DNA of 64,000 nt from Escherichia coli (GTDB lineage Bacteria > Pseudomonadota > Gammaproteobacteria > Enterobacterales > Enterobacteriaceae), in the NCBI RefSeq assembly GCF_030013205.1, contig NZ_CP122648.1; one strand, 5' to 3'. Position numbers: made by a program. Of this stretch, positions 34,201 through 37,200 are shown one piece after another. Position 1 is the first letter of the stretch. The number at the start of each line of letters is the position of its first letter.

Positions 34201-37200
34201 ATCCTTAGCTACTGACTCCTTTAGTCTCCTCAATACCTCATTACTGAACGACCGATCATCCTTTTTCGCGGACTGCTCCAAAGCCTTTTCCAGCCATTCT
34301 GGCATCCTTAATGTCTTAACTTTCATTTTTGCTCCTTTGTATGTGGTACGCATACATAGTATTTAGGTACGCATTGATAGTCAATAGATACCTACATATC
34401 CTGTGGTAAAAAATTATTCAGGATGCGCCGATGTCTGATCGTAAGTACAAAAACCCTCAAGTGAATCTGAGGCTTCCTGTAGAGATAAAGGAACGTCTTA
34501 TTGAACTGGCTGAGGCTAATTCTCGTTCATTAAATGCTGAGATGGTCGCAGCACTTGAAGCATGGACCGAAAAAAACAAACACATTCAAGCACTAGATCT
34601 TGCAACTATAGCATCGCGACTGATAGAGCTTGAGCATGATGTTGAGAAGTTAAAATGCATGCATGGCAATGGTGAAAAATGAAACGTATCGCTATCCTAT
34701 TGCTCCTGTGTCTCTCGAGCATAGCTAACGCAGAAACAAAATCAGACGATAGCAGTTTTGATGAAATACAAGGCCTCATGATAGCTTCGAAAATGGCTGG
34801 TATGTGTGGTGCAATCAAACAAATGGCAATATTCCAAGAATCTACAAACATGCCGGGTGGGAATGAATTCTTGCAGAGATTCCTTACTACAGAGCAAGCA
34901 AGGCTTGGGATGACTCCGCAGCAATTTCTTGAAGCATGTCAGAAATCAATCTCTATTTATACCACCTATTACAATATGAGCTCTGAGAAAAAATAGACTA
35001 GGATTTCAACAACTTCCGCGTCCCTGAGTAATTCTGTCGCGGATTTGCTTCTTACGGTGATTTAAGCTGGAGAGTTTGGCTTCTGCTTCTGATATTTGCG
35101 CATCCAGATCTTTAAGTTCAAGCTCTGAAAGTCGCTGGTCAAGCAGGGTTTGGTTTAACTCAATGTTGTTCAGACGTTCTTCTATAGTCATATTGTTACC
35201 TTAGTGGGAGATTAGTATGATTTCTGCTATTTTATCGGTGCTGCTAGCGTCATTATTCATCGGAGTGGTGTTGATCTCCCCGATGCCAATAATATCAATA
35301 TTATTCATCTTGATGATCGGCTGGTTGTGGCTTAAAAAGGCAAGAAACGATTATTTTTTATCCATAAGAGATAAGCAATTAGAGCTTTTCCGCTTGGGGT
35401 ACACTGGCGACTTGCCATTCTTAACATACCAAAAAAAGTAATAATCAAGCCGGTTCACTCCGGCTTTTTGATATGTCGCTCGCAGAACTCAACAAGCCTG
35501 CTCATTAAGTAGCAGTAAGTCTCGTTGGCTCTTCCTGGTTCAACATCAACACCTACCCTTGAGCAGATATCGAATGCCATGTGAGCGCACTCATGGGCAA
35601 TAGTAGATAGTTTGCCATTGAACACGCCTATCACATGCAAAACACCATTCTCGCTACTCATTGTATGAGACGCTCCGTTGGCGTCCGAGTCATGCACGTC
35701 AACGCCAAGTTTTTGATGCAGGCGTTGCCATTCTGGAAAGTCTCTACAAAACACAATTGTACCGCTCTCAAAGAGCGGAACGAGCATCTTTGGTACGTTT
35801 CCAATGTTAACTTTTTTCATGGTATCCTGCGCAAAACTAAGGAGGTTGGTGTGAAGAAAAAATTTGTAAACGTTGCAAAGTGCGCAATTTTTATATTTTT
35901 TATGACCTTTTACGGATTTAGTGCCGGAGAAGGTTTCGATCGTGATGCCAATGCATTCAGTTTCTTTTGTCTGTCTATAGTGGTCATAATTGTATGGGTG
36001 GAATTAAAGCAAACATTGTTTCATGTGCTAGGGAAATAACCATCCATGGCTTTCCGTTACTTCTGGTTATCATCACTGTTCATCCAGTACATGATGCCTA
36101 GCCTTGATATGGTTTTCTTATCTGATTCTGGAAGTGAGTTGTAAAACGAGCGCCAAGCAGAAGAGCGTCTTACAGTTGTATCAACGATGCTTTCTGGTGC
36201 TTGTTTTACTGCCAGCCTTGCTGCTTTCTGGAATTCTGGTGAGCTAATTAGCTTTTCTGCAGATTCAATTGATTCAGCGCCGCCCATCGCCCTGATTTTG
36301 CTGGCGACTTTTGCCCCAATTTCTGACCCAGCAACAGCACCTACTGCACTGAACGGTCCTGACACAGTTGAACCAACCGCAGTGCCAATGCGTTGGGCAT
36401 GGTTAGCAACAAATTCATTTGCCGCAGTGACGCGATTAAACCGTTTGACGAACTCGTTTAGTCTTCCTGTAGTTATCTCGTAAGATTTTGCGTCTTTGAT
36501 AGCCTTTGCGACCTTATATACATCGTTCAGACCTGACATAGTCTCTTTTGGTAAATGTCGGGCAAGATTGCGCATCTGCCCGTTTGCTAACATGTTTTGA
36601 TACCAGTCAGCAAACCCTGCAGGATTAAAATCAGCGCCACGTTTTCCGTTCGAAAGCATATCCCGAAGACCTGTTCCCAGTAGCTCGGTTCTTAGCTTCC
36701 TGGACGGCGTGTTTTGCATCAATTCACGAAATCCTTTGGCATCGCCTTTCGACATTGCCTGTAGTGCTGTAGTTGCTTTGCGAGAAACATCACCGTTCAG
36801 CGTTCTGCCAGTTAGATTAATCATTTGCTCTTCCATGCTTTTTCGCATCTGAACAAGCCTCTGAGCAACTTCAAAATCACGTAATGCATTTGTCTCTGAC
36901 AGCGCCGCCTTTTGATCATCGGCGAGCGAACCGTAAAGCCTCGATAAAGCAGCGCGATCAGCATCTTTATATGGTCCAGAATTCTTATGAAGTGCATCAC
37001 CAACAAGTCGTCGTTGCTTATTGAGATTTGCATAAGTTAATGCGCCGTTCTTGCCTGGATTAATTGCCCGAAAGACTCTCTTTTCAATAGGGTCAAGGTT
37101 TTTCATCCCGCCAAGATCTTCTGCCACCTGTTTGAGCATTGACCTTGTTGATGGCGCATCAATTTTTGCACCTGCAGGCATCGCCTTTTCAACATTGCGA

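What the first reader, a model, noticed from the sequence alone, without database searches (positions are those of the whole stretch)
34679..36039. Moron cluster between the ImmI-like region and the ejection-protein genes
The segment occupying the P22 sieA position carries several tightly packed small genes of unknown function. These are a signal-peptide protein whose ATG overlaps the mnt-like stop (34679-34996), a 61-aa coiled-coil protein (35006-35191, -), a 74-aa two-TM protein with a good SD (35217-35441, +), a 121-aa protein with an HExxH zinc-binding motif (35455-35820, -), and a possible 62-aa hydrophobic protein with a near-consensus SD and GTG start (35851-36039, +). Such loci in P22-like phages typically encode superinfection-exclusion or host-modifying functions, and these could be retained because they benefit the host.
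Basis: partly seen in the sequence, partly recalled or inferred. Interest (0 to 1): 0.65.

Follow-up and report, generated by a model that had tools for sequence, protein, structure and literature searches.

The report
Accessory gene cassettes in P22-like prophage
This stretch is the already-described variable accessory region ("ant moron") of a P22-like prophage remnant in a pig E. coli strain: five real small genes of untested function, three of them exported or membrane proteins sitting behind prophage-type promoters and one a conserved mini zinc-protease-like gene (HkcC) that phage P22 itself also carries.

Summary
All five ORFs exist at the stated coordinates, and four have independent evidence of being real genes. 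The fifth (62 aa) rests on positional evidence. The window is E. coli ETEC4079. The prophage is a ~20-kb P22-like remnant at att-lambda that has lost its whole early region and late promoter.

The segment is the accessory part of the published "ant moron" between gene 16 and the tailspike gene. It is a mosaic of swappable cassettes.
- Only the 62-aa ORF sits at the sieA position. It uses the same leader and the same GTG start as P22 sieA and HK620 hkcB.
- The 74-aa membrane protein replaces P22 orf59a.
- The 105-aa secreted protein and the 61-aa helical protein are inserted after mnt.
- The HExxH protein is HkcC, 99% identical to the P22 and HK620 copies. Its family keeps H-E-x-x-H plus a Glu 20 residues later invariant, and it models as a small zincin-like fold.

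In 80 related loci the sieA slot holds 12 unrelated cassettes, and 79 of 80 encode exported or membrane proteins. A role at the cell envelope, such as superinfection exclusion, is therefore plausible but untested. The verdict is ordinary, with two modest leads: HkcC as an uncharacterised mini-metallopeptidase, and its mobile pairing with orf59a.

The parts
34431..34682 (+). mnt-like ribbon-helix-helix repressor gene (83 aa). It is the first gene of the inferred prophage-expressed operon that continues into the finding.
   Evidence: It matches Arc-like and Mnt PHROG families. It is 42% identical to P22 Mnt over the N-terminal domain and has the same length. Divergent promoter-like sites lie at 34356-34402, although promoter-like sites in this region are not more frequent than in shuffled sequence.
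34679..34996 (+). 105-aa secreted (periplasmic) protein, phrog_19844, probably translationally coupled to mnt through an ATGA overlap. The mature part is predicted to be a three-helix bundle with two conserved cysteines (C43, C87).
   Evidence: Homologues keep the mature domain while the signal peptide varies. All 6 variable sites fall at codon position 3. The family also occurs in the sieA slot (L084; phage Kapi1_059). An alternative 69-aa cassette starts at the same ATGA in E. coli strain 165.
35006..35191 (-). 61-aa charged helical (coiled-coil-like) protein, phrog_7586, on the late-operon strand.
   Evidence: variable sites 5/6/21 by codon position. The mosaic block boundaries coincide with the ORF. 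PGAP's 'hemolysin XhlA family' label for relatives is not borne out: Pfam XhlA E=0.23 and the protein has no transmembrane segment. It is present in 19 of 80 related loci.
35217..35441 (+). 74-aa small inner-membrane protein (hydrophobic hairpin at residues 2-38, basic cytoplasmic tail). It occupies the P22 orf59a slot, is unrelated to Orf59a, and is not annotated by PGAP.
   Evidence: The 241-bp cassette 35192-35432 is the only difference from sister strain ETEC4068, which has orf59a there. A divergent metagenomic copy shows 22 synonymous against 6 conservative non-synonymous codon changes. No homologue below 92% identity was found.
35447..35466 (.). Intrinsic terminator hairpin plus U-run. 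It is the equivalent of P22 t_mnt and the HK620 bidirectional tORF59A, and it overlaps the 3' end of hkcC.
   Evidence: predicts it on both strands. One search gives a fold energy of -14.1 kcal/mol, z = -3.75. It lies within the block that is 98% identical to P22 and HK620, where it is annotated as a terminator.
35455..35820 (-). hkcC: a 121-aa stand-alone zincin-like protein with an HExxH motif plus a Glu 20 residues downstream, on the late-operon strand.
   Evidence: It is 99% identical to P22 and HK620 HkcC and matches phrog_1365. The family has 514 clusters at 50% identity. G49, H76, E77, H80 and E100 are invariant in 66 members that are 23-44% identical to it. The AF2 model has pLDDT 89. 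Fold neighbours are small zincins. Variable sites by codon position are 4/3/27.
35433..35853 (.). A 421-bp conserved block shared at 97-99% identity with P22, HK620, SE1 and E. coli prophages. It contains the last 9 nt and stop codon of the orf59a-slot gene, the terminator, hkcC, the PsieA-equivalent leader and the GTG start of the sieA-slot gene. Cassette junctions sit at both of its ends.
35790..35850 (+). PsieA-equivalent promoter and leader: a TGgTATCCT extended -10-like element at 35820-35828 and the AAGGAGG Shine-Dalgarno sequence at 35839-45. It overlaps the 5' end of hkcC on the other strand.
   Evidence: It is positionally and sequence-homologous to the annotated P22 PsieA. The -10-like element and the Shine-Dalgarno sequence travel with the 62-aa cassette even in phages that lack hkcC. 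No experimental mapping was done here.
35851..36039 (+). 62-aa two-transmembrane-helix protein, phrog_21338, the occupant of the sieA/hkcB slot. It is not annotated by PGAP or in three phage records.
   Evidence: It uses the same GTG start position as P22 sieA and HK620 hkcB. One allele has ATG. It shows no similarity to SieA.

Best explanation
The segment is the accessory half of the 'ant moron' of a P22-like (Lederbergvirus) prophage remnant. It is built from exchangeable gene cassettes whose junctions fall at start codons, stop codons or a terminator.

Shown here:
- Four of the five ORFs have independent evidence of being real genes. The 62-aa ORF rests on positional evidence.
- hkcC is conserved, and its family keeps a gluzincin-type HExxH...E signature.
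- The other four genes are alternative cassettes at defined slots.

Inferred: there are two expression classes.

1. + strand, prophage-expressed. One unit is mnt, then the 105-aa periplasmic protein, then the 74-aa inner-membrane protein, transcribed from a Pmnt-type promoter and ended by the t_mnt hairpin. The other is the 62-aa inner-membrane protein, transcribed from the conserved PsieA leader. All three products are sent to the cell envelope. The slot they share with SieA almost always holds envelope proteins. Their most likely role is therefore lysogenic conversion at the envelope, probably blocking DNA delivery by incoming P22-like phages as SieA does, or otherwise altering the envelope.

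2. - strand. hkcC and the 61-aa helical protein are co-oriented with the late operon and would be made from the antiterminated late transcript during lytic growth. HkcC is most likely a small zinc metallopeptidase with an unknown substrate.

In this particular remnant the late promoter and antiterminator gene are deleted. Only the + strand genes still have plausible promoters.
For: Identity and context:
- The window matches E. coli ETEC4079 at 100%.
- The prophage runs from ybhB to ybhC, with int and xis joined to a truncated Rz/Rz1. No early region is left.
- Published descriptions of this region are Villafane 2008, PMC2629481 and Leavitt 2024, PMC10883804.

Coding evidence.

Cassette structure:
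- Mosaic boundaries fall at 34683, 35006-35192, 35433 and 35853.
- The sister strain ETEC4068 differs only by the w74/orf59a swap.
- All 80 IMG/VR loci carry a sieA-slot gene behind the same leader. There are 12 unrelated cassettes, and 79 of 80 have a signal peptide, a lipobox or a transmembrane segment.
- The other side of hkcC shows alternative occupants in the same way.

Expression signals: PsieA and t_mnt are 98% identical to the annotated P22 elements.

HkcC:
- It is 99% identical to HK620 HkcC.
- H76, E77, H80 and E100 are invariant in 66 diverse relatives.
- The AF2 model has pLDDT 89, with the HExxH in helix 71-88 and E100 at the start of helix 100-116.
- AFDB neighbours are labelled IrrE/ImmA, SprT-like, DUF4157 or phage metallopeptidase.

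Composition: the + strand cassettes have low GC.
Against: - No transcription, translation or phenotype data exist for any of the five genes.
- Promoter-like sites in the region are not more frequent than in shuffled sequence: 3 found against 4.4 expected. The Pmnt-type promoter is inferred from architecture only.
- None of the three envelope proteins resembles SieA or any model in PADLOC.
- The 105-aa model gives only generic helical-bundle matches.
- The 62-aa ORF has almost no sequence variation with which to test coding.
- Most ant-moron cassettes have no known function, so 'exclusion' is one of several possible envelope roles.
Confidence: 0.6

Rival explanations
1. The two unannotated small ORFs (74 aa and 62 aa) are chance ORFs in AT-rich spacer DNA. 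Only three genes would then be real.
For: PGAP does not call either in the source genome. The 62-aa ORF is also unannotated in three phage records. The 74-aa ORF has no PHROG family and no distant homologue. The 62-aa ORF shows only two substitutions, both non-synonymous.
Against: For the 74-aa ORF, a copy about 85% identical at the DNA level has 22 synonymous against 6 conservative non-synonymous codon changes, keeps a start codon (GTG) and has a GGAGG Shine-Dalgarno sequence. The ORF also fills its 241-bp cassette. The 62-aa ORF starts at the very GTG used by sieA and hkcB, behind AAGGAGG. One allele has ATG. Its leader travels with it into phages without hkcC. It matches phrog_21338 over its full length.
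Confidence: 0.1
2. HkcC is an ImmA/IrrE-type anti-repressor protease dedicated to the neighbouring ImmI circuit, cleaving Mnt, Arc or the prophage repressor to switch on Ant.
Against: hkcC occurs without mnt, arc or ant in at least 13 of 80 P22-type loci, including HK620. In other phage types it lies in tail or terminase gene clusters with no repressor nearby. It has no Peptidase_M78 Pfam match. It is on the late strand, not in a regulatory operon.
Confidence: 0.07
3. The cluster is functionless leftover DNA in a decaying prophage, retained only because the deletion that crippled the prophage is recent.
For: The prophage is a remnant lacking its early region, late promoter and lysis genes. The exact five-gene arrangement is rare: 7 of 5426 complete E. 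coli genomes cover at least 80% of it.
Against: The same cassettes occur intact in viable phages (S.Kent 1-2-1, UPF_BP1, JEP4, phiv205-1, Kapi1) and in many prophages. They show purifying selection and no internal stops in any allele sampled. All late genes of this remnant are still open.
Confidence: 0.15
4. The 105-aa periplasmic protein works like T4 Spackle. It would inhibit a cell-wall-degrading domain carried by incoming ejection proteins, since the neighbouring gp16-like protein has a transglycosylase-annotated N-terminal region.
For: It is a small, helical, secreted protein with a conserved cysteine pair. The gp16-like protein matches phrog_29864 'transglycosylase' over residues 28-186, and PGAP calls it lytic transglycosylase domain-containing. 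The resemblance to Spackle is from my own recall.
Confidence: 0.05

Closest known systems
The 'ant moron' (ImmI-sieA region) of P22-like phages, as described for P22, HK620 and epsilon34 (Villafane et al. 2008, PMC2629481; HK620 and P22 annotations AF335538 and AF527608)
   Same: It has the same location between gene 16 and gene 9. It has the same conserved 421-bp hkcC, terminator and PsieA block (98% identical). It has the same ImmI architecture of divergent mnt and arc-ant genes. It shows the same rapid cassette flux.
   Different: It carries a set of occupants that is uncommon as a combination. A 62-aa protein replaces sieA or hkcB. A 74-aa membrane protein replaces orf59a. An extra pair, the 105-aa secreted protein and the 61-aa helical protein, is inserted after mnt. 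The Mnt and Arc homologues are only 42% and 31% identical to P22's.
P22 SieA (inner-membrane superinfection exclusion protein; Leavitt et al. 2024, PMC10883804)
   Same: The 62-aa gene uses the same promoter leader, Shine-Dalgarno sequence and GTG start position, and it also encodes an inner-membrane protein expressed towards gene 16.
   Different: There is no sequence similarity. It has 62 aa with two hydrophobic segments, against 164 aa or more with about four. It lacks the FxRYPxEAxxFNK motif described for SieA types A-C. Exclusion activity is untested.
HK620 HkcC / P22 hkcC (phrog_1365)
   Same: The 121-aa protein is 99% identical and lies in the same position and orientation.
   Different: There is essentially no difference. 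Here its usual convergent partner orf59a has been replaced.
Small zincin metallopeptidases: gluzincins (thermolysin-type HExxH plus a downstream Glu), minigluzincins, and the SprT/Wss1-like, ImmA/IrrE and DUF4157 families
   Same: HkcC has an invariant HExxH in a helix. It has an invariant Glu 20 residues after the second His, at the start of the next helix. That spacing matches thermolysin H142/H146/E166, which I recall from my own knowledge. A beta-sheet precedes the active-site helix. AFDB structural neighbours carry these family labels. Ten of 66 relatives weakly match Pfam SprT-like.
Phage morons encoding small envelope-located exclusion proteins (for example HK97 gp15, cited in PMC10883804)
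   Same: These are small AT-rich genes with their own expression signals, inserted in a late operon and encoding membrane or periplasmic proteins.
   Different: There is no homology to any of them, and no PADLOC or PHROG functional hit. The function is untested.

Membership tests
P22-like 'ant moron' accessory region (Villafane 2008) | Lies between the gene 16 (ejection protein) and gene 9 (tailspike) homologues of a P22-like late operon | tested here: met
   The gp16-like gene is at 36057-38321 (-) and matches phrog_770 'DNA transfer protein'. The tailspike gene is at 31011-33083 (-).
P22-like 'ant moron' accessory region (Villafane 2008) | Contains no morphogenesis or lysis genes, and its gene content differs among otherwise syntenic relatives | tested here: met
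   None of the five ORFs gives a structural or lysis hit. There are 12 alternative sieA-slot cassettes and several alternative occupants on the other side of hkcC.
Moron (independently expressed inserted gene unit) | Has its own promoter and terminator flanking the inserted gene(s) | tested here: inconclusive
   The PsieA leader and the t_mnt hairpin are 98% identical to annotated P22 elements. Promoter-like sites are not enriched over shuffled sequence. No terminator was found after the 62-aa gene. There are no expression data.
SieA superinfection exclusion proteins (types A-C) | Sequence homology to SieA, multi-pass membrane topology, and the conserved FxRYPxEAxxFNK cytoplasmic motif | tested here: not met
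   BLASTP of all five ORFs against P22 SieA gives nothing significant. The 62-aa protein is far too short.
HkcC family (phrog_1365) | Full-length homology to HK620 HkcC | tested here: met
   The protein is 99% identical over 121 aa. It matches phrog_1365 at E = 1.7e-39.
Gluzincin-type zinc metallopeptidase | An HExxH motif in a helix, plus a Glu in the following helix as third zinc ligand | tested here: met
   H76, E77, H80 and E100 are invariant in 66 members that are 23-44% identical. Helices 71-88 and 100-116 appear in the AF2 model. Side-chain geometry was not measured.
Gluzincin-type zinc metallopeptidase | Zincin fold confirmed against solved structures | tested here: inconclusive
Gluzincin-type zinc metallopeptidase | Zinc binding and peptidase activity | not testable with these tools
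   This needs purified protein, metal analysis and activity assays.
SprT-like (Pfam PF10263) | Significant match to the family HMM | tested here: not met
   The window protein has no hit. Among 66 relatives, 1 matches at E<=0.001 and 10 at E<=0.1.
ImmA/IrrE anti-repressor metallopeptidases | Family HMM match and linkage to a cognate repressor gene | tested here: not met
   There is no Peptidase_M78 match. hkcC occurs without ImmI genes and lies in structural-gene clusters of other phages.
Haemolysin XhlA family (PGAP label of relatives of the 61-aa protein) | Significant Pfam XhlA match and a C-terminal membrane anchor | tested here: not met
   Pfam XhlA gives E = 0.23. NCBIfam gives no hit. 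The protein has no hydrophobic segment.

The most novel reading that the evidence does not exclude
Two things together would be new.

(1) HkcC may be an active minimal gluzincin protease that forms a mobile two-gene unit with the convergent YjzC-like Orf59a. That unit has inserted into the late operons of unrelated tailed phages: P22-like podoviruses, and Klebsiella and Rosenbergiella siphovirus-type and Pasteurellaceae prophages. It could constitute an undescribed phage counter-defence or protease/partner system.

(2) The sieA slot may be a fixed expression dock, with a shared -10 element, Shine-Dalgarno sequence and start codon, that captures unrelated envelope proteins. On this reading the 62-aa, 74-aa and 105-aa products would be new exclusion proteins that block the gp16/gp20 DNA-delivery conduit.
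Probability: 0.15. Interest if true: 0.6.

Novelty: new member of a known kind. Interest (0 to 1): 0.33.

Why it matters
As it stands, this is a routine example of a known hypervariable accessory region, and its genes are already in databases as hypothetical proteins.

It matters modestly in three ways.

1. It assigns each ORF to a defined slot and shows the exact junctions of exchange at a start codon, a stop codon and a terminator. That supports two gene calls that PGAP and three phage annotations miss.
2. It shows that the sieA slot of P22-like phages is almost exclusively filled by exported or membrane proteins. This gives a short list of about a dozen candidate envelope-acting prophage factors that can be tested with the assays already set up for SieA.
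3. It flags HkcC as an uncharacterised family of mini-metallopeptidase candidates. The family is present in P22 itself and is widespread (514 clusters at 50% identity), with an invariant catalytic signature. It usually travels with orf59a.

Tried and rejected
- PADLOC, NCBIfam and Pfam searches of the five ORFs gave nothing credible. There were only weak coiled-coil noise for the 61-aa protein and a spurious lantibiotic hit for HkcC.
- PDB sequence searches with HkcC profiles gave nothing at E<0.1. The sub-threshold hits were mostly metalloproteases aligned at the HExxH motif.
- The XhlA membership of the 61-aa protein was rejected.
- An ImmA-like role for HkcC was rejected as the main reading, because hkcC occurs without ImmI and in other phage contexts.
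- I tested whether the 62-aa or 74-aa ORFs are fragments of SieA, HkcB or Orf59a. They show no similarity.
- I tried to sample distant HkcC contexts in IMG/VR. A1 and A4 returned only the same P22-type loci.
- Literature searches for hkcC and orf59a found only passing mentions.
- The homologue search for the 74-aa protein found only copies at least 92% identical.
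Full report
**Where the window comes from.** The 1.7 kb around the finding is 100% identical to the chromosome of E. coli ETEC4079, a pig faecal isolate (NZ_CP122643.1). The surrounding genes are those of a P22-like (Lederbergvirus) prophage:
- tailspike, 31011-33083 (-)
- ant, 33184-34113 (-)
- an Arc-like gene, 34180-34353 (-)
- an Mnt-like gene, 34431-34682 (+)
- the five ORFs of the finding
- a gp16-like ejection protein, 36057-38321 (-)
- gp20-like and gp7-like ejection proteins

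The prophage sits between ybhB and ybhC, which is the lambda attachment region (my own knowledge). It is only about 20 kb long. PGAP shows int and xis joined directly to a truncated Rz/Rz1. The immunity, replication, late-antiterminator, late-promoter, holin and lysozyme regions are therefore gone.

Four have independent evidence of being protein-coding.
- Across related loci, variable sites fall at codon positions 1/2/3 as 0/0/6 for the 105-aa gene. The counts are 5/6/21 for the 61-aa gene and 4/3/27 for the 121-aa gene. No allele has an internal stop.
- Homologues of the 105-aa protein keep the mature domain and two cysteines while the signal peptide drifts.
- A metagenomic copy of the 74-aa gene, about 85% identical in DNA, has 22 synonymous against 6 conservative non-synonymous codon changes. 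It keeps a start codon and a Shine-Dalgarno sequence.

The 62-aa ORF is too invariant for this test, so its support is positional (see the slot map below). Four of the five match PHROG families of unknown function over their full length. The 74-aa protein matches none. The three proteins looked up by exact sequence (74, 62 and 61 aa) occur in many E. coli and Salmonella assemblies as 'hypothetical protein'. PGAP annotates only three of the five in ETEC4079.

**What each slot is.** I compared the region with P22, HK620, SE1 and two E. coli prophages to map the mosaic.

A 421-bp block (35433-35853) is 97-99% identical to P22, HK620 and SE1. It contains:
- the last 9 nt and the stop codon of the upstream + strand gene
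- the hairpin annotated as t_mnt in P22 and as the bidirectional tORF59A in HK620 (35447-35466; -14.1 kcal/mol, z = -3.75)
- hkcC
- the annotated PsieA region
- the GTG start codon of sieA and hkcB

From this the slots follow.
- **The 121-aa HExxH protein is HkcC.** It is 99% identical to the P22 and HK620 proteins.
- **The 62-aa ORF is the occupant of the sieA/hkcB slot.** It starts at the very same GTG.
- **The 74-aa ORF occupies the orf59a slot** but is unrelated to Orf59a. The sister strain ETEC4068 is 99.5-99.8% identical on both sides and differs only in carrying orf59a there.
- **The 105-aa and 61-aa genes are extra cassettes** between mnt and that slot. An alternative 69-aa cassette in strain 165 starts at the same ATGA overlap with mnt.

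The region as a whole is what Villafane et al. 2008 called the 'ant moron'. They list sieA, hkcC and 59a as its P22 members and describe it as being in rapid flux (PMC2629481).

**Survey of relatives.** I fetched 80 IMG/VR loci that encode HkcC at 98-100% identity.

*The sieA slot.* Every one of the 80 loci has a gene in this slot behind the same leader...TGGTATCCT...AAAACTAAGGAG.... In 62 loci the gene starts at the same GTG; one allele of the 62-aa gene has ATG. In the other 18 loci a lipoprotein cassette uses its own ATG a few bases later. I count 12 unrelated cassettes, with the number of loci in brackets:
- a lipoprotein (18)
- a 129-aa secreted protein (12)
- SieA (11)
- a 75-aa membrane protein (8)
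- HkcB (8, counting two copies in L009-type loci with a duplicated leader that the fixed-offset count missed)
- a second, unrelated 109-aa protein with a transmembrane segment and a coiled coil (6)
- a 106-aa protein (5)
- the 62-aa protein (4)
- a 149-aa protein (3)
- a 68-aa secreted protein (2)
- a 99-aa homologue of the window's 105-aa protein (2)
- a 140-aa soluble protein (1)

Thus 79 of 80 occupants carry a signal peptide, a lipobox or a transmembrane segment. The 62-aa gene also occurs next to gene 16 in phages UPF_BP1, JEP4 and phiv205-1. These phages lack hkcC, and the gene still carries the same -10-like element and Shine-Dalgarno sequence. It is unannotated in all three records.

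*The other side of hkcC.* The next slot holds orf59a in about 66 loci and the 74-aa gene in 11. The 61-aa gene is present in 19 loci. The 105-aa gene is in 5 and the 69-aa alternative in 10. A homologue of the 105-aa protein sits in the sieA slot of phage Kapi1, where its depositors predicted a signal peptide. The full five-gene arrangement is rare: 7 of 5426 complete E. coli genomes cover at least 80% of the query.

**HkcC.**
- *Family size.* A profile search finds 514 clusters (50% identity) of mostly stand-alone proteins of about 120 aa.
- *Conserved residues.* In 66 members that are 23-44% identical to the window protein, the only invariant residues are G49, H76, E77, H80 and E100. That is HExxH plus a Glu 20 residues after the second His, the spacing of thermolysin-type gluzincins (own knowledge).
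- *Model.* The AF2 model is confident (pLDDT 89). It shows a small sheet, a helix 71-88 carrying HExxH, and a helix 100-116 that begins at E100.
- *Sequence families.* The window protein matches no Pfam, NCBIfam or PDB sequence family. Ten of the 66 relatives touch Pfam SprT-like weakly.
- *Conclusion.* I conclude that HkcC is very probably a minimal zincin-type metallopeptidase. Its substrate is unknown.

*Genomic context.* Context argues against a dedicated ImmI role. hkcC occurs without mnt, arc or ant in at least 13 of 80 loci. Relatives lie next to terminase genes or inside siphovirus-type tail gene clusters. In four non-P22 contexts the homologue is followed at 10-14 nt by a convergent orf59a homologue that is 54-83% identical. 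These are prophages of Klebsiella oxytoca, Rosenbergiella and a Pasteurellaceae genome, plus one metagenomic phage contig. So hkcC and orf59a travel as a pair. Orf59a weakly matches Pfam YjzC-like (i-Evalue 0.008). In the window that partner has been swapped out.

**How it most likely works.** This part is inferred from orientation and from the P22 annotation. In P22, mnt and orf59a are read from Pmnt up to t_mnt, and sieA is read from PsieA. The late transcript crosses the region in the other direction towards gene 9 (PMC2629481).

By homology of position, the + strand genes form two prophage-type units:
- mnt, the 105-aa gene and the 74-aa gene, ending at the 35447-35466 hairpin
- the 62-aa gene, behind the PsieA leader

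Their products are one periplasmic protein and two small inner-membrane proteins. [quoted passage not shown] The slot is filled almost only by envelope proteins. An envelope-level exclusion or conversion role is therefore the best guess for these three. I put that specific function at roughly one in three.

hkcC and the 61-aa gene are on the late strand and should be lytic-phase genes. In this remnant the late promoter is deleted, so they have no known promoter.

One caveat applies. The consensus promoter scan is not above chance in this region (3 sites against 4.4 expected). The Pmnt assignment rests on architecture alone. The PsieA and terminator assignments rest on 98% identity to annotated P22 elements.

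**Comparison with what is known, and novelty.**
- The region type, the hkcC gene and the idea that this locus carries prophage-expressed accessory genes are all published.
- None of the five is a SieA homologue.
- The 'XhlA family' label used by PGAP for relatives of the 61-aa protein is not supported.
- No defence-system model matches.
- The 105-aa model (pLDDT 74) is a generic helical bundle with no informative structural neighbour.

The finding is therefore a new combination of members of a known kind. Three modest new points emerged:
- the shared-leader 'dock' that holds about a dozen envelope-protein cassettes
- the invariant HExxH...E signature of the HkcC family
- the mobile hkcC-orf59a pair

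**Verdict.** The HExxH gene, however, is a conserved P22 gene on the late strand. Only one ORF sits at the sieA position, and no function is shown for any of them. Interest is low to moderate.

Noticed in passing
window 30600-50950 (int 49832-50902 +; truncated Rz/Rz1 about 49255-49500): The P22-like prophage is a ~20-kb remnant at the lambda attachment region between ybhB and ybhC. Its int and xis genes are fused to a truncated Rz/Rz1. The whole early region, gene 23, the late promoter, holin and lysozyme are missing, while all virion genes still look intact.
   Followed up: partly
window 34114-34180 (+): There is a sub-threshold but full-length Rfam match to sar RNA, the antisense regulator of ant (29.3 bits against a gathering score of 43; E = 0.011). 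It lies exactly between the arc stop and the ant start, as in P22.
   Followed up: no
L093 5001-5563; L255 4001-4556; L256 4001-4526; L007 6001-6565: hkcC homologues (44-63% identical) are followed by a convergent orf59a homologue (54-83% identical) in prophages of other types. In three of the four loci the pair lies between tail-chaperone-like genes and the tape-measure gene. The pair therefore looks like a mobile two-gene unit. Orf59a weakly matches Pfam YjzC-like.
   Followed up: partly
window 35192-35432 versus L005 2293-2590: Two Belgian pig ETEC strains (ETEC4079 and ETEC4068) carry prophages that are 99.5-99.8% identical on both sides of this point. They differ by a clean swap of the 74-aa cassette for orf59a. 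The right-hand junction lies 9 nt before a shared stop codon.
   Followed up: yes
window 36057-38321 (-): PGAP annotates only an internal fragment of the gp16-like gene, as a pseudogene ('lytic transglycosylase domain-containing, incomplete'). The 754-aa ORF is in fact intact. It matches 'DNA transfer protein' and 'transglycosylase' PHROG families but no Pfam family.
   Followed up: partly
L015 and 17 other IMG/VR loci, sieA slot: The most common sieA-slot occupant in the sample is a lipoprotein (MKKSLLIIPLLLAGC...). It uses the shared Shine-Dalgarno sequence but its own ATG. SE1-type phage records leave this slot unannotated.
   Followed up: no
L084 sieA slot; phage Kapi1 L099 2441-2749: The family of the 105-aa secreted protein occupies the mnt-proximal slot in some prophages and the sieA slot in others. 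The same cargo is therefore used at two different expression sites.
   Followed up: partly
window 34180-34353 (-): The Arc-like ORF is 57 aa from its first ATG, but PGAP calls a 48-aa version of 147 nt. The true start was not resolved.
   Followed up: no
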